Virus record (IMG/VR): IMGVR_UViG_3300028048_003170
Coordinates: 5,077-69,076 of that record
Strand: one strand, 5' to 3'
Length of the DNA stretch: 64,000 nucleotides
Source: a virus
Lineage: Duplodnaviria > Caudoviricetes
In this document: positions 3,886 through 52,303 of the stretch, one piece after another
How positions within the stretch are numbered: position 1 is the stretch's first letter
How the letters are laid out: the number at the start of each line of letters is the position of its first letter
Made by a program: the position numbers and the translations under genes
Notes under the pieces: generated by a model
Seen by the model: only the letters and a program-made list of their open reading frames with translations
What the model was told of the DNA's origin: nothing
The model's database searches: none

Positions 3886-4360
3886 CGATGGCGACGGGCG
3901 GTGAAGCGCAGGCAAGGGAGCGCAGAATGGCGACAGAGGCTGGAGTGTGCCCAAGGCTCACAGCACCGATACCCCTGAGCGCAGCGAAAACAGCGGGGCG
4001 CGGAGGGAATGAAGTGGAGACACAAGATGAGTGGAGTCATCGTGAGTGCCAGGCGGGATGCAGGCGTTGCGGGGCAATCTCTGATTGAGCATCGTGCTTG
4101 CGGAACGTCAGGATCGGGTTGAGGGCGAAGGACGAGCCCGATACCAGTGCAGCGAGCTGGATGCGCCGCCGCAAACGCCGTCAGCAGACCGCCTGAAGCA
4201 CTGTCGATGACGGAGCGAAGCGCAGGGCGGAATGGTAGTGACCGAAGCAGCCGGCTGCGTGTGGTTTTGGCGCGGATAGTGAGCCTGACCAGGCACTCTA
4301 CAGCCGACCGGTCAGTCATTCAAGCTGGCGCAGCCGTAGCGGAAGTGCCCATCGCCATCG
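3886..4360. other. Structured non-coding element with nested long-range pairing (ssDNA or RNA)
   Basis: 3886-3899 pairs with 4347-4360; 3938-3951 with 4292-4305; 3954-3961 with 4279-4286; several GCGNAGC mini-hairpins; no credible ORF. Confidence 0.55.
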
Positions 4361-4403
4361 GGGGCCGGGGCGGGCATTTCGCGTGAGCGATGATAATTGA
4401 AGA

Positions 4404-4643
4404 TTAGAACCAGCCTCCAAATGGCTTTCCACCATGATCGAAAGGATTACCGGCTTTTAAAGCTATGGTAATACCAAGAACGATTGCACAAATGATTTGA
4501 CCTTCATCATTGTGCTTTACTGTGAAGATCACTGCCATGATTACAGTAACAATAATAATTATAAGCATGATATTATCCCACCAATCAATGGCTTTACCCC
4601 TTAAATCATCCCACTTGTCTTCCCTGTCGTCCTCTTCTCTCAT
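4404..4643 (-). CDS. Small AT-rich two-TM membrane protein (moron-like)
   Basis: 79 aa ORF with two hydrophobic stretches, AT-rich relative to flanks. Confidence 0.55.
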   Translation of the reverse strand: MREEDDREDKWDDLRGKAIDWWDNIMLIIIIVTVIMAVIFTVKHNDEGQIICAIVLGITIALKAGNPFDHGGKPFGGWF

Positions 4644-4869
4644 AATCGTGATGGATTTGAGTTACAAATATAGCCTTTATAAGATCATTCTGCAAATAAT
4701 AGGCCAAATGTAACGGATTTTTCTCTACTTTTGCACTGACCAAATAACCTTAAATCTAAGTTTTATTCATACTATTTTTCCTAGGGCACCTCGTTGCGAA
4801 ACGGAGTGCTTTTTTAATGGCGATTAGGCAACGGGAACCGAGCGAAGCGAGTTCCCATTGCCCAATCGG

Positions 4870-5433
4870 CTATTTCCTCAAAAGGTATCTCACCGTGAGC
4901 ACGAGTGCGAGCGCAGCGAGGATCATCAGCGGCCACCAGGTGACATCAGGGGGCTTGTAAACGGCCACGGTGTCACGGGCGTAATGGTCTGCCATGTCCA
5001 TCGTGCGGTGCGAAGCGACGCTGTCGACCTGGCGGGCGCACCGCGAAGCGTTGCGCTCGGACAAGTCGGCCTTTCCGATGGACGCGCGTTTGCCCTTCAA
5101 GACAACCATGTTTGCAGCATGCAGACGTGGTTGGCTTGTGGTAGGATCAGCAAACGCTGGCAGAGATGAAGCCGTGTCTGTGCCGAACGGCATGGGCATG
5201 AACAGCTCGAAGCTGTCGAGGTCGATGCTCAGGCTGCTCATCCACTGAGTCCGCGCAGCGGTCTCGGTGGTGGTACTGGCAGCCTTGGCAACCTCGACGT
5301 TCTCCGCCACTATGGTGGTGGCCTGCTTCTGGCTTCGACAGGAGTGGAACGTGATGGAGAGGCACAGCAGCACCACTACCAGCAGCAGGATGAACACGAT
5401 GCCCTTGAACAGGTTCTTAAATTGGTCATTCAT
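4870..5433 (-). CDS. Lysis-associated lipoprotein, candidate unimolecular spanin
   Basis: Signal peptide ending in lipobox-like FHSC, C-terminal TM helix (WWPLMILAALALVLTVRY), directly downstream of endolysin. Confidence 0.55.
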   Translation of the reverse strand: MNDQFKNLFKGIVFILLLVVVLLCLSITFHSCRSQKQATTIVAENVEVAKAASTTTETAARTQWMSSLSIDLDSFELFMPMPFGTDTASSLPAFADPTTSQPRLHAANMVVLKGKRASIGKADLSERNASRCARQVDSVASHRTMDMADHYARDTVAVYKPPDVTWWPLMILAALALVLTVRYLLRK

Positions 5434-5445
5434 TACTTTGGGATT

Positions 5446-5853
5446 TTAAATGTTTGAATACTCTTTCTTGGCATCAAAGCAGGGGCACGCTTTGGCGGCG
5501 AACTCACGATGGCCGTGGACCGTAGCACGCGGGAAGCGTTGCCTCAGTTCACGGATCAGCGACAGCAGCGCTGCCTTCTGGGCGGCGGTGCGGGTGTCTT
5601 TGGGCTTGCCGTTACGGTCAAGCCCGCCGACATAGCAGATGCCGATGGAATGGGCATTGTGGCCCTTGCAGTGGGCACCGGCTTTCTCGAGGGGTCGGCC
5701 CTTGTGGACCGTCCCGTCGAGGTAAACCACATAGTGGTAGCCGATGTCCGCGAACTTGCGCTGCAGATGCCACTGTCTGATTTGTTGGACGGTAACATGC
5801 TGCCCTTCCCGCGTTGCGGAGCAGTGGACAATGATTTGATCGATGCTTCGCAT
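5446..5853 (-). CDS. Endolysin, N-acetylmuramoyl-L-alanine amidase (T7 lysozyme-like)
   Basis: IIVHCSAT, DIGYHYVVYLDG, GAHCKGHNAHSIGICYVGG, GHREFAAKACPCF motifs. Confidence 0.93.
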   Translation of the reverse strand: MRSIDQIIVHCSATREGQHVTVQQIRQWHLQRKFADIGYHYVVYLDGTVHKGRPLEKAGAHCKGHNAHSIGICYVGGLDRNGKPKDTRTAAQKAALLSLIRELRQRFPRATVHGHREFAAKACPCFDAKKEYSNI

Positions 5854-5858
5854 GGCGG

Positions 5859-6524
5859 TCAGATTTTAGTGGCCGAGACGGGGGTGAGCACGCCCGCGTC
5901 GTAGGTCTGCTTGTTCTTGTCGATGACGCACAGGTGCTTCTCGACCATGGTGAACGAGAAGTGGAAGTCCATCCTGGTGATGTGGGCCACGAAGTACGCC
6001 CACAGCGCAGGGGTGATCTCGTCGGCGATGCTGTCGAGCGTGCGCTGGAAGAAAGCGATCAGCTCGGGCTTGGTGGCGCTGCTGCCGGCCAGGCTGATGT
6101 TGGCCTGCTCCACCTCCTGCTCGTCACTGACGAAGTGGATGATGCCTTGGTCGTCGATGGCGTAGTAGTGCGGGAACCGTCTCTGCGGAACGCCGATGAT
6201 GGGAGCATCAAAGCGGAACTCGCTCTGCTGGGAGTCGTTGCGCACGAACAGGTTGATTACCCGGATGTCCTTGACCTCGATGGCGTTGGGGAACGACGCC
6301 TGGAACACGGCTCGGGCCTCGGGATTTGTCAGTTCGGCGTCCATGGTCACGGAGTGCAGCTCGTCGATCTGGGTGATGAACATCTCCTTGACACGCTCGT
6401 TGTGTGTGACGGTGTGCGTGGGCAGCTCGTGCATGCGGCCGTCGCAGCCCTTGTAGCGGACGTAGTGCTCGTCGCCCTCGCAGATTTCCTGCGGCTTGAT
6501 GTTCAGAACTTTCTTAGTCTTCAT
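5859..6524 (-). CDS. Hypothetical protein between holin and endolysin
   Basis: 221 aa ORF overlapping the holin stop, co-oriented with lysis genes. Confidence 0.7.
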   Translation of the reverse strand: MKTKKVLNIKPQEICEGDEHYVRYKGCDGRMHELPTHTVTHNERVKEMFITQIDELHSVTMDAELTNPEARAVFQASFPNAIEVKDIRVINLFVRNDSQQSEFRFDAPIIGVPQRRFPHYYAIDDQGIIHFVSDEQEVEQANISLAGSSATKPELIAFFQRTLDSIADEITPALWAYFVAHITRMDFHFSFTMVEKHLCVIDKNKQTYDAGVLTPVSATKI

Positions 6525-7008: not shown

Positions 7009-7077
7009 TTTTCTCGTTTTTCTTTGGTTGTTAGGGATTTTCGGTGTATCTTTGTAGCTGTAAAGCAAGACTTCTGG

Positions 7078-8858: not shown

Positions 8859-10583
8859 ATGAGAAGAAAACGAGTACCCATCGCTCCTAGTCTAAAAATT
8901 GATTTGGACGGAAATCTGATTTCCGAGAAGAAAGAGAAAGACGTCAGTGAGTTGACGCTGTTGCAAACCATTGAGCGCGTGGTGGAATTGTCCAAGGACA
9001 GCGAGCTGGATGATGAATTCCTGGAGAGCGCTGAGCCTGAACTGACCCTATTGTCGTCACGACTTAGCGTGACCCCTGTGCAGGCTGTGCTGTTTTCTAT
9101 CTGCCTGAACTGCGGTCACTACCGCATCAATTATGACGACCTGGCTTCTCATCTTGATATTAGCAATGTGCGGGTGCTGAGTTACGGAAAGGACCTTGAC
9201 GCGCTGGTTCGACGCCGCCTGCTCCGCTACCGCGATGTAATGGAGGGGGATAGTGTCGGCGTCCCCCGTGATGTGCTCAAGGCCTTGAAAAATGACGAGG
9301 TTCCCGAGTTGCCCAAAATCAAGGGGCTCGATGTGTTTGAATTCTTCGAGGCGGTGAACCGCATCTTCAACGACCTGACTGATGATGCCGCCACCTTCTA
9401 TGAGGCGCGGCAGGAACTCGAGGACCTTGTCGCCGCCAATCCCAAGTTGGAGTTTGTCAAGCGTCTTCGCGCACTCAAGCTCAGAGGATTCAACTGGATG
9501 ATTCTTTTCTTCTTCATCCACCTCTGTGTCAATAAGGACTATAACCGCATCCGCAGCGGCGAACTGAGCCTGCTCTTCACACGACAGAGCCAATTCAGCG
9601 AGACGCGCAGTGCGTTGCAGAGCGGTAACCATCCATTGATGGAGAAGAAACTCATTGAACACTTCTGTGAAGACGGCATCGCCGACCCCACAACCTACTG
9701 CCTCACCAGTTCGGCCAAGAGCAACCTGTTATGCGAGCTCAATCTCAAGACCAGCGATGTCAGAATCGCCGATTTGCGCAATCCTGCCGACCTCACTCCC
9801 AAGGAGATGTTCTATCCTGCCGAAGTCGGGAAGCAGGTGGTGGAACTCTCGTCGTTCCTCTCGCAGGAGAAATACGGCGAGATTCACGAGCGGATGCAGC
9901 AGCAGGGTTTCCGCCAGGGCTTTGCGTGCCTGTTCTACGGCGGCCCCGGCACGGGCAAGACCGAGACCGTCTATCAGTTGGCGCGCCGCACGGGTCGCCC
10001 CATTATGACGGTCGATGTGCCGCAAATCAAGAGCAAGTGGGTGGGCGAAAGCGAAAAGAACCTCAAGGCGTTGTTTGAACGCTACCGTGGCGCGGTGAAC
10101 CGCTGCGAGGTGGCGCCCATCCTGTTCTTCAACGAGGCCGATGCCATCATCGGCAAGCGCAAGAGCGGTGCCGAGTATGCGGTGGACAAGATGGAGAACA
10201 CCCTCCAGAACATCCTGCTGCAGGAGATGGAGAACCTAGACGGCATCCTCATCGCCACGACCAACCTCGAGGGTAATCTTGACAGCGCATTCGAGCGCCG
10301 CTTCCTCTACAAGATTAAGTTCGAGACGCCCGATGCCACTGTCCGTGCCAAGATTTGGCAAGAGATGATAAAAGACCTTACCGAGGCCGAGGCCGGGCAT
10401 CTGGCCAAGGTCTTCGACTTCAGCGGAGGGCAGATTGAGAACGTCGCCCGTAAGTATGCCATTAGCAGCATCCTCTATGGTGCGGGTGCCAAGCCCCGTC
10501 TGGAGCAGTTGGTGGACTACTGCAAGAGCGAGCAGTTGGCGAGCAAGACGGTTGCCAAGTCAGTCGGTTTTCACACCGCCTGA
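8859..10583 (+). CDS. AAA+ ATPase with extended N-terminal helical region (cargo)
   Basis: Walker A FYGGPGTGKTE, Walker B-like FFNEADAI, sensor IATTN, SRH LDSAFERRF. Confidence 0.9.
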   Translation: MRRKRVPIAPSLKIDLDGNLISEKKEKDVSELTLLQTIERVVELSKDSELDDEFLESAEPELTLLSSRLSVTPVQAVLFSICLNCGHYRINYDDLASHLDISNVRVLSYGKDLDALVRRRLLRYRDVMEGDSVGVPRDVLKALKNDEVPELPKIKGLDVFEFFEAVNRIFNDLTDDAATFYEARQELEDLVAANPKLEFVKRLRALKLRGFNWMILFFFIHLCVNKDYNRIRSGELSLLFTRQSQFSETRSALQSGNHPLMEKKLIEHFCEDGIADPTTYCLTSSAKSNLLCELNLKTSDVRIADLRNPADLTPKEMFYPAEVGKQVVELSSFLSQEKYGEIHERMQQQGFRQGFACLFYGGPGTGKTETVYQLARRTGRPIMTVDVPQIKSKWVGESEKNLKALFERYRGAVNRCEVAPILFFNEADAIIGKRKSGAEYAVDKMENTLQNILLQEMENLDGILIATTNLEGNLDSAFERRFLYKIKFETPDATVRAKIWQEMIKDLTEAEAGHLAKVFDFSGGQIENVARKYAISSILYGAGAKPRLEQLVDYCKSEQLASKTVAKSVGFHTA

Positions 10584-10634
10584 TACATAAATCAAGTGAA
10601 TGTTCAACCCTTAAAACGGAGCTCATATCTTGAG
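10581..10634 (+). repeat. Direct repeat copy 1 (intergenic)
   Basis: caagtgaatgttcaacccttaaaacggag (10593-10621) is identical to 11369-11397; flanks also similar. Confidence 0.9.
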
Positions 10635-10636
10635 AT

Positions 10637-11359
10637 TTGGTTATGGAACGAAAATATAAATACAAACAAGAGAACATTGACGTTGACGGGATGTTGCCGT
10701 TTGAGGACTTTTCGTCAGCATTTACAGAAAGCTACTCCGAAAAATACGGGTGTATGGTAAAGGAGTATGCTGACTCTGCGAACAACAACATCATTTTGGA
10801 GGGGTCGTTCAATCGCCTGCTCCAGCAGATGGATAGCAAGGATTTCGCAATCATCTCCGCTTACCGCAAAGAGAAAACCAAGAAAGAGAACATCTTGCGC
10901 AACCGCAAGCTGCGTGGGATTCTCAACGACAAGAAGATGGGTGTTCATCAGTTGGTCGGTCATTGGCAGGAAGCTCCCGAAGGGGTCAACTACAAGAACG
11001 CAAAGAAAAGTGAACTCACGGAAGTTGTTGAGCGTTCCTATTTCATTGCCCGCCCCGCAGATATGTCATACAGTGAATTCAGGCACATCATCATTGACCT
11101 GCTTACCATTGACGGCTTGGCGCAGGACTGCGGCATCATTCACAACAACGGTGGCGACTACAATGTAATCTACCCAAGCGGAACGGTTGAGAAAATCGGC
11201 AGCAACATCACTATGGACAAGGTGGGGCAGGCTTATTCACATTATGTGAAGAAAAGCGATAGACCATTTGTGTTTGAGGGTGTTGAGTCCCCTTCTTCAA
11301 TCAGCGGTATGCGAATGTTTGCCGACAACGGGTTGGAATACCCCCGCATTAACGACTGA
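10637..11359 (+). CDS. Hypothetical protein, DUF3293-like (FAIISAYR...EN..RN..L motif)
   Basis: 240 aa; motif resembles a family common in large phages (recognised by eye). Confidence 0.55.
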   Translation: MVMERKYKYKQENIDVDGMLPFEDFSSAFTESYSEKYGCMVKEYADSANNNIILEGSFNRLLQQMDSKDFAIISAYRKEKTKKENILRNRKLRGILNDKKMGVHQLVGHWQEAPEGVNYKNAKKSELTEVVERSYFIARPADMSYSEFRHIIIDLLTIDGLAQDCGIIHNNGGDYNVIYPSGTVEKIGSNITMDKVGQAYSHYVKKSDRPFVFEGVESPSSISGMRMFADNGLEYPRIND

Positions 11360-11410
11360 TACGCAAACCAAGTGAATGTTCAACCCTTAAAACGGAGTTC
11401 ATATGTTGAG
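11357..11410 (+). repeat. Direct repeat copy 2 (intergenic)
   Basis: Starts at the TGA of the preceding gene, as does copy 1. Confidence 0.9.
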
Positions 11411-11732
11411 ATTAATTGCGCCAAGCAGGGCCGAAAACCTGTTGCTGAAAGCCAAACTGCGTGATGAAGCCTATGCCAAGTGGCTCAATAGCGATGCAGG
11501 GCAGGAAATGCAGGGCCGAGTGGCACGCTGGTTTGAAAACAATATGTGCGGATGTACCAGTAACCAAGGAGCCAGATACACCTATGGTGAAATGCTCGAC
11601 GTGCAGTTGGGCGGGCGGTTTGACATCGTGTATGTAATGCTCAAAGAGTCGGACATCGCCGATCCGTATGACCGGCTGTTTGCCGCCCACAGGCTGCTTG
11701 AAATGATTAAACAGTATGATGAATCACATTAA
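11403..11732 (+). CDS. Hypothetical protein (paralogue A)
   Basis: 109 aa; clearly similar to the next ORF (D.AYA.W..S..GQEM.GRV..W...N..GC; DPYDR). Confidence 0.75.
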   Translation: MLRLIAPSRAENLLLKAKLRDEAYAKWLNSDAGQEMQGRVARWFENNMCGCTSNQGARYTYGEMLDVQLGGRFDIVYVMLKESDIADPYDRLFAAHRLLEMIKQYDESH

Positions 11733-12066
11733 CGGAAGGAGGCAAGTTATGGAAACGTTAGGAAGCGTTTGGAACAGTTATCTGGAAAAGAAACTGTGGG
11801 ATGATGCCTATGCCCAGTGGATTGCAAGCGAGTCCGGGCAGGAGATGGAAGGCCGCGTGAGGCGTTGGTGCCGTGACAATCTGGAGGGTTGTTGCTTCGA
11901 TGATACAAGAATCTCCTATGGCGAAATGCTTAACACCACTTCTGGCAACCGCTATGACATCGTTTATCTTTTCCTGAACGAGACAGGCATCACCGATCCC
12001 TATGACCGATGTTTCGTTGTGCGCACACTTTTGGAAGAAATGGAAAAATACGACACCATTGATTGA
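11716..12066 (+). CDS. Hypothetical protein (paralogue B)
   Basis: 116 aa; paralogue of 11403-11732; start may be 11749. Confidence 0.75.
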   Translation: MMNHINGRRQVMETLGSVWNSYLEKKLWDDAYAQWIASESGQEMEGRVRRWCRDNLEGCCFDDTRISYGEMLNTTSGNRYDIVYLFLNETGITDPYDRCFVVRTLLEEMEKYDTID

Positions 12067-15303: not shown

Positions 15304-16158
15304 TCAGAACCAGTATCCATTTGCCTGCTTTTTGTTCTCGAACACGGGCGGCTCGAAGAGTTTGTAGGTGGCTGAGTTGCGGAAATGCGGGAACGAGGCC
15401 TCGTTCTTGCGCATGAAGTCAACGATGTCACGCAGCGACTGCACGGGCACCTGGCCTCCCTGCAGCACGGTGACTACGGCGTGCCGTAGTTGCTCGATGA
15501 CGCGGAAGTGGTGAGAGGTGGCCACGGTCAGGTCGCTGAGCATGGTCATCACCTCGCTGCGGAACACGGCGAGCTGCTCGGGCGAGATGTATTCCTCGGC
15601 GAGGCGCTGTTCCACGTCGATCGCCTTGGAGCGCAGGCCCAGGTAATTGGCCCAGCGGTGGTCGGTGAAGCCGCACAGGTTGGCCAGGTCAATGTTCGGG
15701 AACAGCGTGGCGTTGAACCACTGGCGCATGGGGCTGTCCGTCCACGTGCTGTTGAGGAACAGGTTGTGGATCAACTGCTCGATGGCGATGTCCCGGCTCG
15801 TCTCCAGCGAGCCGAGGAGCCTGGCCACACGGTGGGGACTTGCGGGAGCGACATTCTGGTTGCTCACGATGCCGAACCCGTTCGGCGTGAGCACCAGGTC
15901 AAGCGAGGGAACGGCCCGCAAGAAGGCCTCGTGGACGGTGACGAGGTTGGCGCACGTGCGCAGCGGCTCGGTCTCGGGCATGGCGGTGAGTTCGGGGGCG
16001 AGGTCGCTCCCGATGAACTGGGTCATCACCCATCGCTCAGCTTGGTCGAGCCACGGCAGAATCTTCTCATAGAAGGGCGTTTCGCCCTCCACGGTGTCGA
16101 AAGCGTTGGGCAGGTATCTGCGCAACTGCTGGTCATTGGTTATCAGTCTCGTTTCCAT
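15304..16158 (-). CDS. Phage structural protein downstream of portal (possible head-tail adaptor)
   Basis: 284 aa, overlaps portal 3' end; VLTPNGFGIVSN..APAS motif. Confidence 0.55.
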   Translation of the reverse strand: METRLITNDQQLRRYLPNAFDTVEGETPFYEKILPWLDQAERWVMTQFIGSDLAPELTAMPETEPLRTCANLVTVHEAFLRAVPSLDLVLTPNGFGIVSNQNVAPASPHRVARLLGSLETSRDIAIEQLIHNLFLNSTWTDSPMRQWFNATLFPNIDLANLCGFTDHRWANYLGLRSKAIDVEQRLAEEYISPEQLAVFRSEVMTMLSDLTVATSHHFRVIEQLRHAVVTVLQGGQVPVQSLRDIVDFMRKNEASFPHFRNSATYKLFEPPVFENKKQANGYWF

Positions 16159-19547: not shown

Positions 19548-19823
19548 TTAAACCTCGTGCTCGATGTACTCGCTCAGCTCCTTGAGGATGCCTTCGATGT
19601 CCTCGGCCGTGCTGTCATCGGCAAACGTCCATGACCTGCAGGCCTTGGCGGGCGGCTCGCCTTGGTGGGCGAACACCGTCCACCATGTCATCACCTCACC
19701 ATCGCATCGCACCAGCGTGTTGGTGTGGATGCTCATCGAGTGGCAAATGCCCACCTTGTTGTTATACACTGCGTCCTGTACTCGGCGAATGCGGGTAACC
19801 GCCTTTTTCACTTCTCGTGTCAT
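19548..19823 (-). CDS. Small hypothetical protein
   Basis: Likely start 19823 (MTREVKK) or 19877; in operon with the MutS-I gene. Confidence 0.55.
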   Translation of the reverse strand: MTREVKKAVTRIRRVQDAVYNNKVGICHSMSIHTNTLVRCDGEVMTWWTVFAHQGEPPAKACRSWTFADDSTAEDIEGILKELSEYIEHEV

Positions 19824-19881
19824 AGCTCTTGATTTTTGCGGTGGGCGGGGGCTGGCCTCGCCCACCTTGTTAAACATTATC

Positions 19882-20484
19882 TTACTTGTTCTCGGCCTTC
19901 TTGGTGCTGCGCTTGCGGCTCTTCTTCTCGGGCTGCGGCTCGGGCAGGCCATCACAGATGGCTACACGCTTGCCTGCTCTAACCAGACGCGGCAAATAGC
20001 TGTCGAGGGCGTGGGCGGGGAATGCGGCCTGACGCTCGGTGATGTCCTTCGCCTGCGTGCGGGTGAGCACTATGCCCAAAATCTCGCTCACGGCTACCGC
20101 ATCATCGCCAAACGACTCGTAAAAATCGCCCACACGGAACAGCAAAATCGCATCGGGGTGCTTGGCCTTCATCTCGACCCACTGACGGGCCAGCGGCGAG
20201 GCCTCGCCCACCACCTCGGCGGTGGGCTGGCTCTCCTGCTCGGGCGCTGCGCTCGGCTCCTGCTGCGGCTGGCTCGCCTTCACCTCGGCCATCAGCTTGT
20301 TATAGATGGCCTTCGGGATCACTGCGCCAGTGCGCTTGCGCAGGATGAACGCATACCTCAACGCCTTCAGCGGCTCCGAAAAGTAGAACTCGCCACTCTT
20401 TACACTGTCCTCACTGCGGTACACATGCCACATCATTGCACCACTCTTTACCTCTCGCTTGCTTGCTAAAATCAGATTTGCCAT
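19882..20484 (-). CDS. Stand-alone MutS domain I (mismatch-recognition) protein
   Basis: WVEMKAKHPDAILLFRVGDFYESFGDDA...AAFPAHALDSYLPRLVRAGKRVAICD; no MutS ATPase domain. Confidence 0.88.
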   Translation of the reverse strand: MANLILASKREVKSGAMMWHVYRSEDSVKSGEFYFSEPLKALRYAFILRKRTGAVIPKAIYNKLMAEVKASQPQQEPSAAPEQESQPTAEVVGEASPLARQWVEMKAKHPDAILLFRVGDFYESFGDDAVAVSEILGIVLTRTQAKDITERQAAFPAHALDSYLPRLVRAGKRVAICDGLPEPQPEKKSRKRSTKKAENK

Positions 20485-20518
20485 AATCGTAAAATTTTGA
20501 AAATGAATATATAAGGAA

Positions 20519-20773
20519 TTAAAAACTATCTACATACAGGTAAACATTGCAGTAACTCACCTGCAGACCTGTGGCCATGGCCATGTCTGCGGCCTGCTCG
20601 CTGGCCTCGGCCTCGCTGCGGGCATCCACCTCGAAGGTGTGGCTCTCATTGTCGAAGTCCACCACCTCGACCATGTAATTATTGTACTTGGATGAGCGGT
20701 AACCCTTTTTACTCGCACGGCTCTCAGCTTGTTCGGGAGAACCCAGGAATGATATGTTATAAGAAGTAGTCAT
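20519..20773 (-). CDS. Small acidic hypothetical protein
   Basis: 84 aa, first gene after the hairpin promoter. Confidence 0.7.
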   Translation of the reverse strand: MTTSYNISFLGSPEQAESRASKKGYRSSKYNNYMVEVVDFDNESHTFEVDARSEAEASEQAADMAMATGLQVSYCNVYLYVDSF

Positions 20774-20805
20774 AATGATGAAATTTTTAAAATGTTAATA
20801 ATCAT

Positions 20806-21030
20806 TGTCCATGTTGTCGCGTATAACCTTTTTACACTGCTTTAAGAGCGAGGGCTGTTAGTGATACGCCTGTCAAGGCTTGACCGAAAAAATCCATCCT
20901 GAAAGGGCTGGCCAAATTTTATGCGCAGCGTCAAATTTTGTGGATTATTTCGAGGCAACTGTGCATGGCCTTGCAGTATCACGATGCCCGCTAGCTTTGC
21001 GGTGTAAAAGGTGGTAGCGACAGGACAATG
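20806..21030 (-). promoter_or_regulatory. Frpo-like single-stranded-DNA hairpin promoter
   Basis: Arms 20827-20879 and 20969-21012 pair; consensus TAGCTTTG (20993-21000) is present only in the distal arm; homologous to 52111-52303. Confidence 0.65.
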
Positions 21031-21108
21031 TCAACATTTTGTTTCATCAATGCGGCTTCACGGTATCATGACTCTCCCGTCAAGCAGAGGGCCGTGCATA
21101 AAGACAGC

Positions 21109-28757: not shown

Positions 28758-28768
28758 AATTATTTTTA

Positions 28769-32326: not shown

Positions 32327-32350
32327 TGATCAGCTTGGTTATTGAAGTTT

Positions 32351-32364
32351 ATGGTCTTGTTCTG
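32351..32364 (-). repeat. Remnant of brxC 3' end in the pglX1-pglX2 spacer
   Basis: atggtcttgttctg is identical to 36006-36019; tgatcagc is also shared (32327 vs 35981). Confidence 0.7.
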
Positions 32365-32380
32365 ATAGAAACTCTAATTG

Positions 32381-35980: not shown

Positions 35981-35992
35981 TGATCAGCGTTA

Positions 35993-39547: not shown

Positions 39548-39565
39548 ATTATTATTCTGTTTTAT

Positions 39566-40174
39566 TTATTCATTAATTAAGTAAGAAGCCCTGTAGAAGT
39601 GCGCATCGTCAAGAAGGTTGAAAAGCGAATAAGAATTACCTACACGCTCACCAGGGTAGAATACAATGATTTTGTATCGCCCCACCTTGTTGAATTCCTC
39701 ATAGAGAGTGAGGAAGGCATTGGTGCGCAGGTATGGGAATATGCGGTCGATGCCATAAAGGAATACATAAGGCCGACGCAATCCGTCGCCCTCACGCTCC
39801 ACATGATCGATGATACGCTGATGGATATAGGCCAAAAAATCGTGACTTCTCGCCTCATCACAGAGGAGGTCATTGATGTCATCGTTATCAAGGCCGCGTT
39901 CATTGTCGTAGAGCAGCTTCAACATTGAGCTATAATCTCCATAACTGCTTTGGTCAAGGTAATTGCAGAATTCCTCGAAAATATCAAGGGATAGCACGTC
40001 TATGAAGTTATTTGGACGGCTCAGTGCATCCTTGAATTTGACGAGTTCTTCCTCAAGTTCATATTCATCCTCAATGCGGTAGGCATAGAGGAAATAATTA
40101 TAAAAAATATCACCGTTGGCCGGGTCTTGGAATCTCGGGTCGGAGAGTTTCTCGAGTAATGGTTGTAGGTTCAT
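39566..40174 (-). CDS. brxB: BREX protein BrxB (DUF1788)
   Basis: ATG overlaps brxA stop (ATGA); VFLYGIDRIFPYLR, IVFYPG, HFYRA motifs. Confidence 0.88.
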   Translation of the reverse strand: MNLQPLLEKLSDPRFQDPANGDIFYNYFLYAYRIEDEYELEEELVKFKDALSRPNNFIDVLSLDIFEEFCNYLDQSSYGDYSSMLKLLYDNERGLDNDDINDLLCDEARSHDFLAYIHQRIIDHVEREGDGLRRPYVFLYGIDRIFPYLRTNAFLTLYEEFNKVGRYKIIVFYPGERVGNSYSLFNLLDDAHFYRASYLINE

Positions 40175-40809
40175 GACAAAGCTTTTATAATGTTTTCTTT
40201 TTCGTAAGGCAGTAACAGGCAAGCATCGAGGTACCAGTCTTCGCCATTAATAATGTAATATCGATAATCCTGCGGATCCAACAGGAGAGGCTGAAGTTGG
40301 CCATTTGCATCGAGAATTCCTGCCTGCCTTAGAATGGTAAGGTAGGCACTTGTGATTTTACCTCGCGTTTTCTCGGACCAGGAATCCACGAACTGGTCTT
40401 GTGAAGCAATCTGATAATACTCCATCATGACATCGTTTTTGCTAAGTGAGTGGTCTGTAGAGTTCCATCGACGCATAGTGAGGTTAACATGGAAGTCAAA
40501 GATGAGACGGTAGCATTTCAGGATGCAGTAGAACAGGGCAGCCCGCTGGCCTTTCTCAGAGAGCTGCTCATACCATTTCCAAAAATCCAATGAGACTGCG
40601 TCAAATCGTTTACGGAATTCCGCGATGATTCTTTTCGCGCCAATCTCACTGTTTACTTGAATGAGCCCTCGATCCTTAATTTCCTTCTTCAAGAGTACGT
40701 CTGCTTCTGGCGACAGTAATAAGGGAAGCACCCTATTGAATTCGTAAAACATGAACGAGCATCCAGTGAAGGAAGCGCTGTAGGGACTAGAATTGCGATC
40801 AGTTGCCAT
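40171..40809 (-). CDS. brxA: BREX protein BrxA (DUF1819)
   Basis: Start MATDRNSSPYSASFTG; WSEKT..KI.SAYLTILRQAGIL pattern; first gene of the operon. Confidence 0.88.
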   Translation of the reverse strand: MATDRNSSPYSASFTGCSFMFYEFNRVLPLLLSPEADVLLKKEIKDRGLIQVNSEIGAKRIIAEFRKRFDAVSLDFWKWYEQLSEKGQRAALFYCILKCYRLIFDFHVNLTMRRWNSTDHSLSKNDVMMEYYQIASQDQFVDSWSEKTRGKITSAYLTILRQAGILDANGQLQPLLLDPQDYRYYIINGEDWYLDACLLLPYEKENIIKALS

Positions 40810-40954
40810 ACTATTATATTTATAATTAAAACAAACTCCAATGCAGTCCCTGCAGGCCGACCAAAGCCTATATAACCGCAAAGGAGTTTGTGAAATTTTC
40901 GTTTTCTCGGTCTGTTGCAGGTATAGATCCCGTTATGGTGGAAAATCGTAAGTG

Positions 40955-42713: not shown

Positions 42714-44345
42714 TCAGAGAACGCCGCCTGTGTTGAAGCCGAAAGTATCATGGAACGGGAACTTCTCGCAGCCGATATAGAGGGTGTCGAAAGCGTCCGT
42801 GCCGTCGGTGCGGTGCTGGAGCAGATCTTCTTCAGTCTCAGCGAGTTTCTCGCCGCCCTTGTCCTTGCGGAAGCCGTTGCGCCCACGCACCACGCCTGCC
42901 GTCTGGATGGCCAGGATGAGGTCATCGTTGTTTTGGCGGTTAAACATCGGCATGAGCCGTTGTTTGCCGGCAAAACCCTGGTTGATGAGCAGGTACTTCT
43001 CATCATGGCGCATGGGGTTGCCCAGGTTGATGTCCTCGACCTGCCAGCCGTGCCGCTCGAACTCGTGGCACACCACCCAGTGGAAGTCCTGTTCGTTCAC
43101 GGCATAGTTGCCGCCCAGGGCGGTACTGTCGTAATAATAGACGACTATCTTGGTCTCGTGGTGGGCATAGTAGCGGCAGAAGTCGTCAATGAGCGCGGGG
43201 ATCTTGCGCTCGAACTTCGTGTAGAAGCTCTTGATGACGTTCAGGCGGCGACCTGTGGGCTGGCCCGCCACGATCCAGTTGATGTTGGCGTTATAGTCCA
43301 TGCCGATGCAGATGGGGGCGTAGGGGTTCACGTCCTTGTCTGCCCTACTGTCCAACTGGTTTTCATTGAAGTCAAAGCCCAGGCTGTCGAGATACTCGAA
43401 GTCGCTGGCGTTGTACTTGTGACCCTCACGCATGGACGAATAGAATCCGTCTTTGGCAATGCCGATGCGTTGGCAAAGAATCGAGGTCTGGAACGTCTTC
43501 GGCGTGAGGTCACGCTTCATCTGCTTGATGTAAGATTCACCCAACAGCTGCAGGTTCTCGATGCTGCTGTACTCCTTGTAGTACACGGCCACGGATCTCA
43601 TCTTGTTGAGGTTCGTGTCCAGGCGGCGCAGATAGGTCTTGAGGTAGCGGGGCACCTTGATGCCTCGGTCCCTCAAAGAACGGATGCGCTGCTTCAGGTG
43701 CCATATCTCATAGACAGTGCCCTTGATTGTCTCGATGAGGTCAACGTCCATCTTGTCCTGATAGTGCAGGAACCAGGAGCCCTTCTGGGTCTGCGGCATA
43801 TCGCTGAGGATCATCACCGAGTGGTTGAACGAATGATGACCAAAGTAGGACTTGATGCCGCCATTGGCAGGCAGCGTCTCGTCCTTGAGTCGCTCGTAAT
43901 CGATGAACTTGGCCTCATCGATCAGGAGCCACGAGAGGGTCAACGAGTTGCTGCTGCCTGGCCTATCCTGCGAGATGATGATGGCACAGGAGCCGTTGTA
44001 GAACGTGATGACGTGCTCATATTCGGCAGGCTCGATGATGGGCTTGCCGAATGACCTGGGCGGTTTGCGCCCGATGACATAGTGGATGCCGTTGATGTAG
44101 CCCCAGCGCTTCCAGGCGGCCAGCAAGCCCGGGATGGTGTTGGTCAGGCCGTGCTTGTAGGTGGGCACGACGATGCCGCCCGTGCTTCCCGCCATGCGCT
44201 GCATGTTGCGCAGCACGAATGGCGAGGCGATCGAATCGGTCTTGCCGGTTCGACGGCCCGCCACGATGACGGTGGTATTGGCACCGATGAGCTGGGTGAG
44301 GCGCTGCGGGGCGTTAAAGTATATTCTTTTCTCGGGCTGCTTCAT
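42714..44345 (-). CDS. Terminase large subunit
   Basis: Walker A VAGRRTGKT, Walker B LLIDEAKF, RNase-H-like IGMDYN and TDAFD. Confidence 0.85.
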   Translation of the reverse strand: MKQPEKRIYFNAPQRLTQLIGANTTVIVAGRRTGKTDSIASPFVLRNMQRMAGSTGGIVVPTYKHGLTNTIPGLLAAWKRWGYINGIHYVIGRKPPRSFGKPIIEPAEYEHVITFYNGSCAIIISQDRPGSSNSLTLSWLLIDEAKFIDYERLKDETLPANGGIKSYFGHHSFNHSVMILSDMPQTQKGSWFLHYQDKMDVDLIETIKGTVYEIWHLKQRIRSLRDRGIKVPRYLKTYLRRLDTNLNKMRSVAVYYKEYSSIENLQLLGESYIKQMKRDLTPKTFQTSILCQRIGIAKDGFYSSMREGHKYNASDFEYLDSLGFDFNENQLDSRADKDVNPYAPICIGMDYNANINWIVAGQPTGRRLNVIKSFYTKFERKIPALIDDFCRYYAHHETKIVVYYYDSTALGGNYAVNEQDFHWVVCHEFERHGWQVEDINLGNPMRHDEKYLLINQGFAGKQRLMPMFNRQNNDDLILAIQTAGVVRGRNGFRKDKGGEKLAETEEDLLQHRTDGTDAFDTLYIGCEKFPFHDTFGFNTGGVL

Positions 44346-49024: not shown

Positions 49025-50110
49025 TTAGGGAACAAGGTTGTACAAGGACTGAGCCTGGTTGCAGGTCTCGACATACTGCTGCACCTCGTCCTGGGGCTGG
49101 TGCTTGTCGGACGTGCCTTCGTTGATGACGGCGGTGGAGCTGTCGGCGGGCGACTTCCTCACCGCTGCGAGTTCATCGGCGAGTTCGGCGTTGCGCTTGT
49201 CGCGCTCGCCAAGGGACTGCTCGACGCTCTTGAGCTGGTCAAGGGTGAGCGTGCAGCCCTCCTCGCCCACGGCAAAGCCCTCGATGTTGAGGACTTTGCC
49301 CAGGAGCGGAAGAATCTGGTTCATAGGATCGGATTGTGCTTGAGTTGTGGTTTGTGTGGATTTATGACTAACTTCTTGTGTCTTTTTCTCGGTAGCGGGC
49401 GCCGTTTCGGCTGCCGCCTGGGGTTCCTCGTTGGCCTTCACCGTCTTGAACAGCGAGGCGATCGAGGCAAGGAACCGCGCGAAGAGCGTTTCCCTGTTCT
49501 CGGTCGGCACGTTGGGAATGGGCAGGCCAGCCTCGGCAAGGGCTGAGGCCACGGCATCGGTGAGCACCGGCTTGGTCTCGCCCAGGTCGGTGATCTCATC
49601 GACGAAGCCCCATTCCAGGGCCTCCTTGGCATTGAGCCAGCCGCCCTCTCGCATCAGGTCGAGCAGGTCGGCATGGGGCTTGCTGGTCTTGGAGGCGTAC
49701 ATCGAGGCGACATTGTTGTCGAGTTTGTTCAGGTCGCGGATCGCCGCCTCGCAGTTGTCACGGACGGCTGCGAGCTGGTCGGCGTTGAGGTTGCCCCACT
49801 CGAAGAACTCGGCGCTGCACTTGTGCACCAGGTACATGGCGGACGCGTCCATCGTGATGCGCCTGGCGCCGAGCGAGGCGATGGTGGCGGCACTGGCGTT
49901 CATGCCCACGAAGTGGACCGTCACGTCGCCGTGGTTCTTGAATGAAGAGGCAATCGACAGGGCCGTGGCGAGCGAGCCGCCCAGGCTGTCGATCAGCACG
50001 TTGACGGGCTTGCCCTCATTGCGGGCGAGCACGTAGTCAACATAGTTTCTATCGAAGTCGTAACCTCCCACGTACCCCTTGAGGTGGAGGTGGTATTGTG
50101 TCTGTGCCAT
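49025..50110 (-). CDS. ClpP-like head maturation protease with scaffold C-terminus
   Basis: IDSLGGS, NASAAT, MYLVH, WLNAKEALEWGFVDEI. Confidence 0.9.
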   Translation of the reverse strand: MAQTQYHLHLKGYVGGYDFDRNYVDYVLARNEGKPVNVLIDSLGGSLATALSIASSFKNHGDVTVHFVGMNASAATIASLGARRITMDASAMYLVHKCSAEFFEWGNLNADQLAAVRDNCEAAIRDLNKLDNNVASMYASKTSKPHADLLDLMREGGWLNAKEALEWGFVDEITDLGETKPVLTDAVASALAEAGLPIPNVPTENRETLFARFLASIASLFKTVKANEEPQAAAETAPATEKKTQEVSHKSTQTTTQAQSDPMNQILPLLGKVLNIEGFAVGEEGCTLTLDQLKSVEQSLGERDKRNAELADELAAVRKSPADSSTAVINEGTSDKHQPQDEVQQYVETCNQAQSLYNLVP

Positions 50111-50142
50111 AGTAATGATCGGATAGGATTAGATTGCTGGCA

Positions 50143-50177
50143 CAAAGTTACCTTATAACCAAGGGGTGTCAAAAGAC
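50143..50177 (-). promoter_or_regulatory. Putative phage late promoter (GTCTTTT-N20-TAACTTTG)
   Basis: caaagtta 50143-50150, 20 nt spacer, aaaagac 50171-50177. Confidence 0.75.
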
Positions 50178-50180
50178 GGC

Positions 50181-50603: not shown

Positions 50604-50681
50604 ATCGTGGCGGGTTGAGCGGGTTGGTTGATGTAGAATCTGGCGATGCGGCTTTTCCAGCATTTGCGGCAATTCCGACAA

Positions 50682-51209
50682 TTACGGCTTTTCCGACAGT
50701 TCCTGCATCGTGGACAAAGGGGCATCATTTTTCGGGCATTTTTTTTGCGATTTTTTCTCTCTTCTTCTGTAGATGTCACGCTTGCGCTGGTAGCGCTTGG
50801 TCACGGCGCACCAGTTCGTGTCGTTGAACTCGATGCCGTGGCTTACCATCCAGGCTTCAACGAGATCCTTGAGCATGTTGGAACGGGGATGCACCTTGTG
50901 CAGATCCTGCCACAGTTGCACGTCGAAGCGGGAGCGGATGCACTTGTGCAGGCAGTGGACGGCTGACGTGTCCAGGTAGTTGTAGGTCTCGGCCTCCTTC
51001 TCCTTGAAGGCGGGGATGACGATCGCCAGGTTGGCGTCCTTGCCCGTGTCAACAGGAACATCGTCGGGACGCTTGGCAAGGAACAGGCGCAGTATATCTG
51101 CCTCGACCGAGCCGCGTGGCAGTTCCACCGGCGAGGTTCCGCCCATCTCATGGAGGAACCACTGGGAGAGATAGGGCTCAAATCTGAAATATAAGACGTA
51201 TTTGTTCAT
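50682..51209 (-). CDS. Phage hypothetical protein, candidate late-gene activator
   Basis: 175 aa, basic helical C-terminus; preceded by a standard host-type promoter. Confidence 0.55.
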   Translation of the reverse strand: MNKYVLYFRFEPYLSQWFLHEMGGTSPVELPRGSVEADILRLFLAKRPDDVPVDTGKDANLAIVIPAFKEKEAETYNYLDTSAVHCLHKCIRSRFDVQLWQDLHKVHPRSNMLKDLVEAWMVSHGIEFNDTNWCAVTKRYQRKRDIYRRREKKSQKKCPKNDAPLSTMQELSEKP

Positions 51210-51238
51210 ATCCTTAATGGTAGTGTTCGTTTATACCG

Positions 51239-51270
51239 CAAATTTACATAATCATCTTTATATCAGCAAA
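51239..51270 (-). promoter_or_regulatory. Standard Bacteroidetes promoter TTTG-N20-TAAATTTG
   Basis: caaattta 51239-51246 and caaa 51267-51270. Confidence 0.6.
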
Positions 51271-51355
51271 TTGCGTTCAAATTTTGAACTAACTTTGTGT
51301 CGATTCAGCCCTGGGTCTCCTCGGAGCACCGGGGCAGGTTTCGATGGGGCACGAA

Positions 51356-51380
51356 AAAAGCCGCTCTCGGCGGCTTTCTT
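51356..51380. terminator. Terminator after ardA
   Basis: aaaagccgc-tctcg-gcggctttctt. Confidence 0.65.
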
Positions 51381-51400
51381 GTTAGGTGCTGCGCTATCGG

Positions 51401-52072
51401 TCAGCAGGTGCGGAACACATGACCGCCATCGCCCATGTCATAGTCAGACATAAAGAGCTCACGGGCGAAGGCCTTGAAGTCAAAAAAGCGGGTGATGCTC
51501 TCGGGAACATTGTCGAACATGCAAAGCTCATCGGCGAGGTGCTGCGCGAACTCCTCCTCGCTGTCCCATCGGCCGCAGTAACGCTCACGGAAATCGGAGA
51601 AATCCGCATCGCTGTCGCTCGTGACATCCAGAAACGCCCTGAAGGCCTCCTGCTCGTCATCATCGAGGTCAGCGTACTCGAGAATGCGCTCGAATGTGTC
51701 CTCATCGAGGCCGCTCTCACTGTACCACTCATCGGGGTAATTCTCATAATCGAGGTAGGCAAACTCGGGATCCTGCTCATCACGGTGCAGCCATCGGCAG
51801 GCGGCCACAAAATCCTCGTAGCAGCTGAAGGTGTACAGGTCAAGCCACATGCCAGCCAGCGGCCTCCCTTCATTGTACTTGTGATAGGTGCAGCAGAACA
51901 CGGCAGGATGGCCGCTGCGGTAATCGTACTTGTGGAAATCCAAATCGACCTCCTCAAGCTCATCAACGATATTGAAATTGGATGAGCTGAGCGAGCCTTT
52001 TACAACCTGCTCTTGAACACTGGTGCTGTCAGCACCGCTTGCGGGATTGAAAGAATTGAAATTGTTGTCCAT
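51401..52072 (-). CDS. ardA: Antirestriction protein ArdA (DNA mimic)
   Basis: TYHKYNEG...GMWLDL, DPEFAYLDYENYP, YCGRWDSEEEFA, FFDFKAFARELFMSDY; highly acidic; likely start 52072. Confidence 0.9.
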   Translation of the reverse strand: MDNNFNSFNPASGADSTSVQEQVVKGSLSSSNFNIVDELEEVDLDFHKYDYRSGHPAVFCCTYHKYNEGRPLAGMWLDLYTFSCYEDFVAACRWLHRDEQDPEFAYLDYENYPDEWYSESGLDEDTFERILEYADLDDDEQEAFRAFLDVTSDSDADFSDFRERYCGRWDSEEEFAQHLADELCMFDNVPESITRFFDFKAFARELFMSDYDMGDGGHVFRTC

Positions 52073-52110
52073 AACGAAAAATATTAAAAAGTTAAACATA
52101 CGATTTTGAA

Positions 52111-52303
52111 CTTGTTGTCGCTTTCGCTTCGCCTTTACGATGCCTGCAAAGTGCGGCTGGAGCACACTAAAGCAAGGCTTGCCCGGAAATTACTACCCCG
52201 CAGGGGCTGGAGAATTTCCGAAGGCAACTTGCCTTGGCCTTGCGTGTGGGTAGGCCGCAATACCTTTGCAGCGTAAAGGCAAGGGAGGCGACAAGGGAAC
52301 AAG
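52111..52303 (-). promoter_or_regulatory. Frpo-like single-stranded-DNA hairpin promoter upstream of ardA
   Basis: Arms 52111-52178 and 52237-52303 pair; consensus TACCTTTG (52261-52268) only in the distal arm. Confidence 0.7.

What the first reader, a model, noticed from the sequence alone, without database searches (positions are those of the whole stretch)
3886..52303. All ssDNA-type signals point to the same (plus) strand: a prophage with a single-stranded phase?
Seen: both hairpin promoters need the plus strand as folded template. The GNA-triloop hairpins (gcgcagc 20923, cct-gaa-agg ~20898, cccc-gca-gggg ~52196, GCGAAGC 4215 and 4842) also read on the plus strand. No relaxase is in the window. 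Inference: the plus strand is exposed as ssDNA at some stage, such as strand-displacement replication by the primase-helicase or mobilisation by a co-resident conjugative element, and the phage uses this as a regulatory cue. The alternative is passive capture of ICE cassettes.
Basis: inference. Interest (0 to 1): 0.75.

Follow-up and report, generated by a model that had tools for sequence, protein, structure and literature searches.

The report
Single-strand hairpin promoters in a prophage
Two conserved DNA hairpins in this rumen Bacteroidales prophage carry a host promoter on the "wrong" strand, a device known from conjugative plasmids, but their shared strand simply follows gene direction, so a single-stranded stage of the phage remains a good question and not a finding.

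Summary
The window is a tailed, integrase-bearing prophage of a rumen Bacteroidales bacterium. Nearly all of its genes are on the minus strand.

**What holds up.** The two "hairpin promoters" (20798-21054 and 52099-52320) are real and are two copies of one element family.
- Each is a 150-220 nt imperfect hairpin.
- The arm distal to the gene carries TTG, 18 nt, then TAnCTTTG, which are the Bacteroides -33 and -7 boxes, on the strand antisense to the gene.
- The box is present on that strand in 73 of 73 copies and on the gene-sense strand in 1 of 73.
- 43 of 47 base pairs show compensatory changes.
- The family lies before ardA in about 75 related prophages. It also lies before ardA, radC and pcfJ genes in CTnDOT-like conjugative elements.

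**What does not hold up.**
- The GNA-triloop hairpins are near chance (z about 2), and two of the five are parts of the two big hairpins.
- "Same strand" follows from gene orientation.
- The GC skew reflects codon usage.

**Verdict.** These are Frpo-like single-strand promoters. Passive recent capture is unlikely. A single-stranded phase of the phage is plausible but has no direct evidence, and contigs from RNA libraries span the whole ardA hairpin. The scan had already noted this device on other DNA.

The parts
52099..52320 (+). Hairpin B, a single-strand promoter element before ardA. Core is 52133-52284. The 5' (template) arm CTTTACGATGC is at 52133-52143. The -33 TTG is at 52240-52242, followed by an 18-nt spacer. 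The -7 box TACCTTTG is at 52261-52268. The 3' arm GCAGCGTAAAG is at 52268-52278. The apical loop is at 52196-52206.
   Evidence: Sequence. Model R1 scores 164.6 bits on plus against 31.9 bits on minus. Covariation.
51401..52099 (-). ardA anti-restriction gene. The start is probably MFNF at 52099, at the foot of the hairpin, or MDNNF at 52072.
   Evidence: Pfam ArdA, E 9e-25. Start inferred from relatives.
20798..21054 (+). Hairpin A, second copy of the element. Core is 20830-21015. The 5' arm TTTTACACTGC is at 20830-20840. The -33 TTG is at 20971-20973, followed by an 18-nt spacer. The -7 box TAGCTTTG is at 20992-20999. An extra apical side arm holds gcgcagc at 20923.
   Evidence: Sequence. 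Alignment to B. R1 scores 50.5 bits, E 3.5e-9.
19548..20773 (-). Three-gene cassette driven by hairpin A: an 84-aa protein (20519-20773), a MutS-domain-I protein (19882-20484) and a 135-aa protein (19548-19955).
   Evidence: Pfam MutS_I, E 7.5e-27. The same cassette lies behind the same hairpin type in L021, L005, L042, L093 and L074.
52459..52802 (.). Array of TGTAGAA / TTCTACA repeats between the primase stop codon and hairpin B. Candidate replication origin or operator array.
   Evidence: 7 of the window's 17 copies lie here, against 5.05 expected for the whole window.
52813..55986 (-). DnaG-type primase fused to a long C-terminal domain. This is the phage replication protein.
   Evidence: Pfam Zn_ribbon_DnaG, DNAG_N and Toprim. 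PHROG DNA primase. Conserved upstream of the ardA hairpin in relatives.
4215..4221 (+). GCGAAGC mini-hairpin motif inside the 3886-4360 non-coding element.
   Evidence: Near-chance motif count.
4833..4856 (.). Hairpin gggaac..GCGAAGC..gttccc just past the stop codon of gene 4870-5433. Terminator-like by eye.
   Evidence: Sequence and ORF table.
3886..4360 (.). GC-rich conserved non-coding element with a long nested fold. Function unknown. Not shown to be related to the hairpin promoters.
   Evidence: 88% identical to L061 and L062, with mismatches spread 14/10/14 over codon positions and 12 gaps. Fold z -4.1 on plus and -3.8 on minus. No Rfam family.

Best explanation
**What the signals are.** The "ssDNA-type signals" reduce to two copies of one element: a Bacteroidales version of the Frpo/ssi single-strand promoter.

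**How the element would work.**
- Each element is a 150-220 nt imperfect hairpin.
- Its 3' arm, distal to the gene, carries the host -33 (TTG) and -7 (TAnnTTTG) boxes reading away from the gene.
- Its 5' arm is the template strand, which runs on into the gene.
- In duplex DNA the boxes point the wrong way.
- When the plus strand is single-stranded and folds, the two arms rebuild a duplex promoter. The -7 box sits in an internal loop. The promoter is aimed at ardA (hairpin B) or at the 84-aa/MutS-I cassette (hairpin A).

**Shown here:** the fold, its conservation and covariation, the invariant boxes and their strand, and its presence in both ICEs and a large prophage family.

**Inferred:** that RNA polymerase uses it on single-stranded DNA.

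**Why both lie on the plus strand.** Their genes, like almost all genes of this phage, are on the minus strand. This is not extra evidence.

**Why the phage keeps them (my inference).** Most likely the plus strand is transiently single-stranded genome-wide during phage DNA replication, as the displaced or lagging-template strand of rolling-circle or recombination-driven replication. Entry as a conjugative T-strand is less likely. Cassette positions differ among relatives (next to the origin here, between head and tail genes elsewhere), so origin-local melting alone cannot be the cue.
For: **Geometry**
- The invariant 'CCTTG ..18 nt.. TAnCTTTGC' lies on the strand antisense to the gene.
- TAnnTTTG is on that strand in 73 of 73 cores and on the sense strand in 1 of 73.
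- Only 11 of 73 loci have a sense-strand box within 400 nt upstream, against about 7 expected by chance.

**Fold**
- 91.5% of cells paired against 34-46% when partners are slid; 15 pairs with double changes.
- On 82 distinct rows, 43 of 47 pairs are compensatory; covariation score 0.37 against 0.05-0.08.

**Strand**
- G:T 170 against A:C 71.
- The plus-sense fold is more stable in 61 of 74 copies.
- The model scores 164.6 bits on plus against 31.9 bits on minus.

**Kinship with conjugative elements**
- Model hits lie before ardA and before a JAB/RadC gene in a B. ovatus CTnDOT-like element.
- The best-scoring copies in Leyella stercorea and Prevotella merdae lie beside traK-traO and drive a PcfJ/DUF3873 operon.
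- Two or three co-oriented copies occur per ICE locus.

**Stable phage feature**
- The hairpin lies directly before ardA in about 75 of 80 ArdA loci.
- About 45 of these share primase, protease, capsid and terminase with the window.
- There is no blastn similarity between the window and the ICE loci.

The promoter consensus TTTG/TAnnTTTG is established knowledge (Bayley, Rocha and Smith 2000, recalled from memory).
Against: - Nothing in the sequence shows single-stranded DNA of either strand.
- No relaxase or conjugation gene is in the record.
- The plus-strand GC skew is explained by codon usage.
- Tailed phages inject double-stranded DNA, and anti-restriction is needed at entry, before replication.
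- Contigs from RNA libraries bridge from ardA into the hairpin (51967-52205), cover the distal arm (52253) and run on to 52321-52397. If these are RNA, many ardA transcripts start upstream of the hairpin on ordinary duplex DNA.
- The alignment used for most covariation counts was fitted to the model, and the G:T excess may partly reflect that.
- Copies are related by descent, so the counts are not independent events.
Confidence: 0.5

Rival explanations
1. The cassettes evolved in conjugative elements, where the transferred strand is single-stranded. In the phage they persist without any single-stranded stage. The phage expresses ardA and the MutS-I cassette from duplex DNA, by an upstream promoter or read-through. 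The hairpin is kept by linkage, by repeated exchange with ICEs, or for a secondary role such as a structured leader.
For: - The family is present in ICEs, with typical establishment genes behind it.
- Cassettes sit at different places in different phages, so they move as modules.
- RNA-library contigs span the whole ardA hairpin and beyond.
- The phage has no conjugation genes.
Against: - The hairpin is kept before ardA over ArdA divergence down to about 40% identity within the prophage family, with compensatory pair changes.
- There is no nucleotide similarity to the sampled ICE copies.
- In the ArdA tree the two ICE proteins are a single long branch among deep phage diversity.
- No conserved canonical sense-strand promoter box lies upstream.
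Confidence: 0.27
2. The hairpin works in duplex DNA. Negative supercoiling, or melting by the nearby origin or helicase, extrudes it as a cruciform, as with the hairpin promoters of phage N4. The promoter is then rebuilt locally without a genome-wide single-stranded phase.
For: - Hairpin B lies 150-500 nt from an iteron array and the primase gene.
- This order is conserved in about 45 relatives.
- N4 is a precedent for hairpin promoters in a tailed phage (recalled knowledge).
Against: - The arms are imperfect and are separated by a 60-110 nt apical domain, which disfavours extrusion.
- Hairpin A is 31 kb from the iterons.
- In L005, L042 and L093 both cassettes lie between head and tail genes.
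- No virion RNA polymerase was seen.
Confidence: 0.1
3. It is not a single-strand promoter. The boxes are an ordinary duplex promoter for a rightward antisense or small RNA, or the fold acts as RNA in a long ardA leader, for example a processing or translation-control hairpin ending at the start codon.
For: - In duplex DNA the boxes are a perfect rightward promoter.
- RNA-library contigs cover 52263-52513 and the whole hairpin.
- The foot of the hairpin abuts the start codon.
Against: - A rightward transcript would start 3' of the -7 box and would contain neither the 5' arm nor the apical domain, so the covarying fold would be unexplained.
- There is no conserved ORF or terminator to the right.
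- In the sense RNA the 170 G:T pairs become A:C mismatches.
- An RNA role does not explain an invariant -7 consensus with correct spacing on the other strand.
Confidence: 0.1

Closest known systems
Frpo / ssi single-stranded-DNA promoters of conjugative plasmids (F Frpo, ColIb-P9 ssi; Masai and Arai 1997; surveyed in PMC11541004)
   Same: - A long imperfect hairpin of the template strand.
- Promoter boxes on the arm distal to the gene, so that only the folded single strand aims them at the gene.
- Unpaired bases at the downstream box.
- Several co-oriented copies in front of establishment and anti-defence genes such as ardA.
   Different: - The boxes are the Bacteroidota -33 TTG / -7 TAnnTTTG, not sigma-70 -35/-10.
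- No sequence match: no Rfam family reached threshold and blastn found nothing in plasmids.
- Here it sits in a tailed prophage without relaxase or T4SS.
- The survey paper contains no word beginning 'Bacteroid'.
ssDNA promoters of establishment genes on Gram-positive plasmid pLS20 (PMC6294495, PMC8708921; seen only in search listings, not read)
   Same: Going by the titles and abstract openings listed, these papers deal with regulation of establishment genes of conjugative plasmids, and the term 'ssDNA promoter' occurs in their text.
   Different: Different phylum and promoter consensus. They are in a conjugative plasmid, not a phage. I did not read these papers beyond title, abstract opening and term counts.
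Hairpin early promoters of phage N4
   Same: A tailed dsDNA phage that uses a DNA hairpin as a promoter.
   Different: N4 hairpins are 5-7 bp stems with 3-nt loops, read by a virion RNA polymerase on extruded DNA (recalled knowledge). Here the hairpins are 150-220 nt and carry host-type boxes. No such polymerase gene was seen.
Integron attC sites
   Same: Imperfect hairpins that act as a folded single strand, are strand-specific, and lie one per gene cassette.
   Different: attC lies 3' of the cassette gene and is a recombination site for an IntI integrase. Here the element lies 5' of the gene, ends at the start codon and carries invariant promoter boxes. No integron integrase is nearby.

Membership tests
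Frpo/ssi-type single-strand promoters | One strand folds into a long imperfect hairpin that is conserved as a structure | tested here: met
   91.5% of cells paired against 34-46% in slid controls. 43 of 47 pairs compensatory on 82 distinct rows.
Frpo/ssi-type single-strand promoters | Both promoter boxes lie on the arm distal to the gene, antisense to it, so that only folding points them at the gene | tested here: met
   TAnnTTTG is on the element strand in 73 of 73 cores and on the sense strand in 1 of 73. TTG lies 18 nt upstream in both window copies.
Frpo/ssi-type single-strand promoters | Mismatches or a bubble at the downstream (-10-equivalent) box | tested here: met
   The -7 box columns lie between helices 1 and 2 of the consensus structure, and no pair is assigned to them.
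Frpo/ssi-type single-strand promoters | Sequence homology to F or ColIb Frpo/ssi, with sigma-70 -35/-10 boxes | tested here: not met
   No Rfam family reached threshold. No blastn hit in 72,556 plasmids. The boxes are of the Bacteroidota type. A direct alignment to F Frpo was not made, because no reference sequence was at hand.
Frpo/ssi-type single-strand promoters | Located in the leading region of a conjugative element, on the transferred strand | tested here: not met
   The window is a tailed prophage with terminase, portal, protease and tape measure. It has no relaxase. ICE-borne relatives lie beside tra genes, but which strand is transferred is not known to me.
Frpo/ssi-type single-strand promoters | RNA polymerase starts on the folded single strand | not testable with these tools
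   Needs in vitro transcription or 5'-end mapping.
N4-type hairpin promoters | Short 5-7 bp stem with a 3-nt loop, read by a virion RNA polymerase | tested here: not met
   The elements are 150-220 nt and carry host boxes. No large virion RNA polymerase appeared among the ORFs scanned.
Integron attC | Lies 3' of the cassette gene, next to an IntI integrase and attI | tested here: not met
   The element lies 5' of the gene and ends at the start codon. The only integrase is a phage-type tyrosine recombinase 50-70 kb away, at the start of the record.

The most novel reading that the evidence does not exclude
Tailed temperate phages of gut and rumen Bacteroidales pass through a strand-specific single-stranded stage that they use as a switch. 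One route would be transfer of the excised phage genome as a T-strand by a co-resident CTnDOT-like element. The other would be a stage at or soon after entry, or in rolling-circle replication, that exposes the plus strand. The hairpin promoters would then be the phage's establishment programme. This would blur the line between phage and conjugative element.
Probability: 0.2. Interest if true: 0.9.

Novelty: new variant of a known kind. Interest (0 to 1): 0.6.

Why it matters
Single-strand promoters explain how conjugative plasmids switch on anti-defence genes before the incoming strand is copied. My searches found them described for enterobacterial plasmids, and listed two pLS20 papers that I did not read.

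This work shows three things:
- A structurally analogous device is built on the Bacteroidota promoter consensus.
- It is present in 21 of 151 sampled Bacteroidales genomes.
- It is kept as a stable part of a large family of tailed prophages, in front of ardA.

A duplex-injecting phage has no obvious use for such a promoter. Either these phages expose one strand in a regulated way, or the device works in a way not yet understood.

Cultured hosts carry family members: Leyella stercorea DSM 18206 and Prevotella merdae Marseille-P4119. The question is therefore directly testable.

The specific claim of this finding, that many signals converge on one strand, does not add evidence beyond the two hairpins themselves.

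Tried and rejected
- **Rfam.** No family at gathering threshold over the whole window. Only sub-threshold miRNA-model noise in 3500-5000.
- **blastn of hairpin B.** No match in GenBank phages or PLSDB plasmids.
- **RNAalifold on the plain MAFFT alignment of 78 copies.** It recovered only the -33 stem, because the apical insertions misalign. This was replaced by a hand-drawn structure on 30 copies and a covariance model.
- **GC skew as a sign of a single-stranded plus strand.** Rejected. GC3 skew on the coding strand is -0.17, -0.11, -0.15 and -0.15 for phage minus-strand genes, phage plus-strand genes, BREX genes and flank genes.
- **GNA triloops as ssDNA signals.** Rejected as near chance and not conserved.
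- **Intrinsic terminators around both hairpins.** None by the pattern scan.
- **Canonical sense-strand -7 box upstream of ardA.** The TATTTTTTG near 52482 has a 3-nt spacer instead of a 2-nt one. The only sigma-70-like match is on minus at 52521-52492.
- **RNA libraries.** Only assembled contigs were available, so there is no strand, start or level information. Depth differences between ardA and its neighbours are not used as evidence. Parts without cover are not interpreted.
- **Model R1 on the first 16 kb of a Porphyromonas gingivalis phage with a related primase, and on the P. distasonis CTn locus.** No hit, although the latter shows a TACCTTTG box by eye.
- **The opposite-strand copy in L068 (6027-6134).** It is only the distal half of an element at a rearrangement, so it is not a counter-example.
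- **ArdA tree.** This is the quick tree only, unrooted, with just two ICE sequences. It gives no direction of transfer.
- **A paper with many 'Frpo' hits (PMC13532299).** It is about a phage named fRPOT1 and is irrelevant.


Full report
**What the window is.** The window is bases 5077-69076 of a 69,076-base IMG/VR provirus record. Gene content marks it as a tailed temperate phage:
- tape measure (2-3454), amidase and a weak holin-like match (E 0.004, below the Pfam cut-off)
- portal-like protein 16133-17494
- large terminase 42714-44345 and prohead protease 49025-50110
- DnaG-type primase fusion 52813-55986
- a tyrosine integrase at the start of the record

A complete BREX-1 cassette with two pglX genes fills 24148-40881. 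Nearly every gene is on the minus strand. Relatives place the host among rumen and gut Bacteroidales: Prevotellaceae, Muribaculaceae and Bacteroidaceae.

**The observation.** The motifs are of very unequal weight.

*The two large hairpins.*
- They are homologous to each other.
- An alignment with copies from viral contigs shows an invariant 'CCTTG', about 18 nt, then 'TAnCTTTGC' on the window's plus strand, which is antisense to the downstream gene.
- These are the Bacteroides -33 and -7 promoter boxes (TTTG / TAnnTTTG; Bayley, Rocha and Smith 2000, from memory).
- The segment just 3' of the -7 box pairs with 'TTTTACnnTGC' on the gene-proximal side. The -33 box pairs with 'GCAAGGC'. The stem runs down to the start codon.
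- So the non-template boxes are on the distal arm, and the template strand runs from the proximal arm into the gene. This is the geometry of Frpo-type single-strand promoters.

*Statistical support.*
- With a hand-drawn structure on 30 copies, 91.5% of cells pair, against 34-46% when partners are slid, and 15 pairs show double changes.
- A covariance model found 83 matches in the loci held. On their alignment 43 of 47 pairs show compensatory changes. The covariation score is 0.37, against 0.05-0.08 for slid controls. That alignment is fitted to the model.
- The strand is supported by G:T 170 against A:C 71, by a more stable plus-sense fold in 61 of 74 copies, and by model scores of 164.6 bits on plus against 31.9 on minus for hairpin B.
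- TAnnTTTG is on the element strand in 73 of 73 cores and on the gene-sense strand in 1 of 73.
- A sense-strand box within 400 nt upstream is no more frequent than chance: 11 of 73 loci.

*The small GNA hairpins.*
- GCGNAGC occurs 29 times on plus and 13 on minus, against 19.6 +/- 4.3 expected.
- Four-pair stems with a GNA loop occur 23 and 18 times, against 14.4 +/- 4.0 expected.
- Those near 20898 and 52196 are the apical loops of the two big hairpins, and 20923 lies in a side arm of hairpin A. In relatives the apical loop reads GCA, GGA, GA, GC, AC or TC, so GNA is not conserved.
- The hairpin at 4833-4856 follows the stop codon of gene 4870-5433 and looks like a terminator.

The positive GC skew of the plus strand is not a replication or exposure signature. 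At third codon positions C exceeds G on the coding strand for minus-strand phage genes (-0.17), plus-strand phage genes (-0.11), BREX genes (-0.15) and flanking genes (-0.15).

The "convergence on one strand" therefore comes down to two copies of one element. Each must lie antisense to its gene, and the genes lie on the minus strand like almost everything else.

**Where else the element occurs.**

*In prophages.*
- An ArdA-profile scan of one genome per species returned 80 Bacteroidales loci.
- The hairpin lies directly before ardA, always antisense, in about 75 of them.
- About 45 share primase, protease, capsid and terminase with the window.
- Six more distant loci that I inspected have the same layout of gene sizes and order.
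- ArdA identity within this set falls to about 40%, yet the fold is kept.
- The second cassette type (hairpin, 84-aa gene, MutS-domain-I gene) recurs in L021, L005, L042, L093 and L074. In L005, L042 and L093 it lies immediately upstream of the ardA cassette, and L093 also shows head-gene and tail-gene matches on either side. So these cassettes are not tied to the origin region.

*In conjugative elements.*
- In a Bacteroides ovatus CTnDOT-like element the model hits before ardA (E 3.5e-7) and before a JAB/RadC gene (E 1.5e-3). By eye the same apical motif and an antisense TACCTTTG are present.
- In Leyella stercorea and Prevotella merdae the best copies lie beside traK-traO and head an operon with PcfJ and DUF3873 genes. 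Other loci carry two or three co-oriented copies.
- Genes found behind such hairpins include ArdA, RadC, a J-domain protein, DUF6943 and PcfJ.

*Prevalence and literature.*
- 21 of 151 sampled Bacteroidales genomes have a hit at E <= 1e-4.
- The window has no blastn similarity to the ICE loci.
- The literature searches found single-strand promoters described for enterobacterial plasmids and listed two pLS20 papers that I did not open. The survey paper I checked contains no word beginning 'Bacteroid', and I found no report for tailed phages.
- The scan's own notes record the same device on other DNA, both in ICEs and before phage ardA.

**What this means for the finding.**
- The reading "hairpin promoters that need the plus strand" is well supported.
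- The reading "passive capture of ICE cassettes" is half right. The device is shared with ICEs, but in the phages it is old, stable and still under selection for its fold.
- The reading "the prophage has a single-stranded phase" is a reasonable inference from that conservation. Nothing in the sequence tests it.

No relaxase was found. An iteron-like array of TGTAGAA repeats lies between the primase stop codon and hairpin B. This suggests a nearby origin. However, hairpin A is 31 kb away, and cassette positions vary among relatives. So if single-stranded DNA is the cue, it must be available genome-wide.

For the plus strand to be the displaced or lagging-template strand, forks would have to move rightward, head-on to transcription. 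That is possible in rolling-circle replication but is not shown.

In RNA libraries from animal gut samples, assembled contigs bridge from ardA into the hairpin, cover the distal arm and run on upstream. Only contigs were available, with no strand or start information, and DNA carry-over cannot be excluded. If they are RNA, ardA is also transcribed from duplex DNA upstream of the hairpin. That argues against restriction of ardA to a single-stranded phase.

**Verdict.**

| Reading | Probability |
|---|---|
| Elements are Frpo-like single-strand promoters by design | about 0.75 |
| They work as such in the phage and need plus-strand ssDNA | about 0.45-0.5 |
| Retained ICE-type cassette expressed from duplex DNA | 0.27 |
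| Local extrusion from duplex DNA | 0.1 |
| RNA-level or antisense-promoter role | 0.1 |

The finding's own addition, strand convergence, is not evidence. The puzzle it points to is real and testable in cultured lysogens.

Noticed in passing
window 3886-4360: GC-rich conserved non-coding element. It is 88% identical to stretches in L061 and L062, and in L061 the stretch lies about 900 nt downstream of ardA. Mismatches spread 14/10/14 over codon positions with 12 gaps, so the 173-aa ORF over it is not a gene. The long nested fold has z -4.1 on plus and -3.8 on minus. No Rfam match. Function unknown.
   Followed up: partly
window 52459-52802: Seven TGTAGAA/TTCTACA repeats in both orientations lie between the primase stop codon and the ardA hairpin. 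Candidate origin iterons or operators.
   Followed up: partly
window 28769-35980: Two full-length tandem pglX methyltransferase genes (1185 and 1199 aa) lie inside the BREX-1 cassette carried by the prophage.
   Followed up: no
window 21980-23209: A protein like the exonuclease VII large subunit lies just downstream of brxL in the same orientation.
   Followed up: no
L068:6027-6140: A truncated copy of the ardA-type hairpin in the opposite orientation. Only the distal arm with the promoter boxes and its right flank remain. It lies at what looks like a rearrangement junction. As duplex DNA it would be a plain promoter.
   Followed up: partly
G034:C1 at 1040078, 1677342, 2093223 and 3287245: Four hairpin copies with identical model score (59.2 bits) are spread over one Bacteroidales chromosome. 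This suggests a multi-copy mobile element that carries the device.
   Followed up: no
L187 (Porphyromonas phage BK068099.1) 3967-12250: P. gingivalis prophages with a related primase have an orphan methyltransferase where this family has ardA. Model R1 gave no hit in the first 16 kb.
   Followed up: partly
L160, L179, L185 (genome G116): Three high-scoring hairpins (67-77 bits) each precede a 158-aa protein with a J-domain-like N-terminus (Pfam DnaJ 25.8 bits, just under the 27.8 cut-off). This is an unusual cargo for an establishment cassette.
   Followed up: partly
window 8859-12066: A counter-oriented plus-strand cargo operon (AAA+ ATPase, SAM-lyase-like protein and two small genes) has no hairpin element. 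In this window hairpins occur only on the strand antisense to the main gene direction.
   Followed up: no
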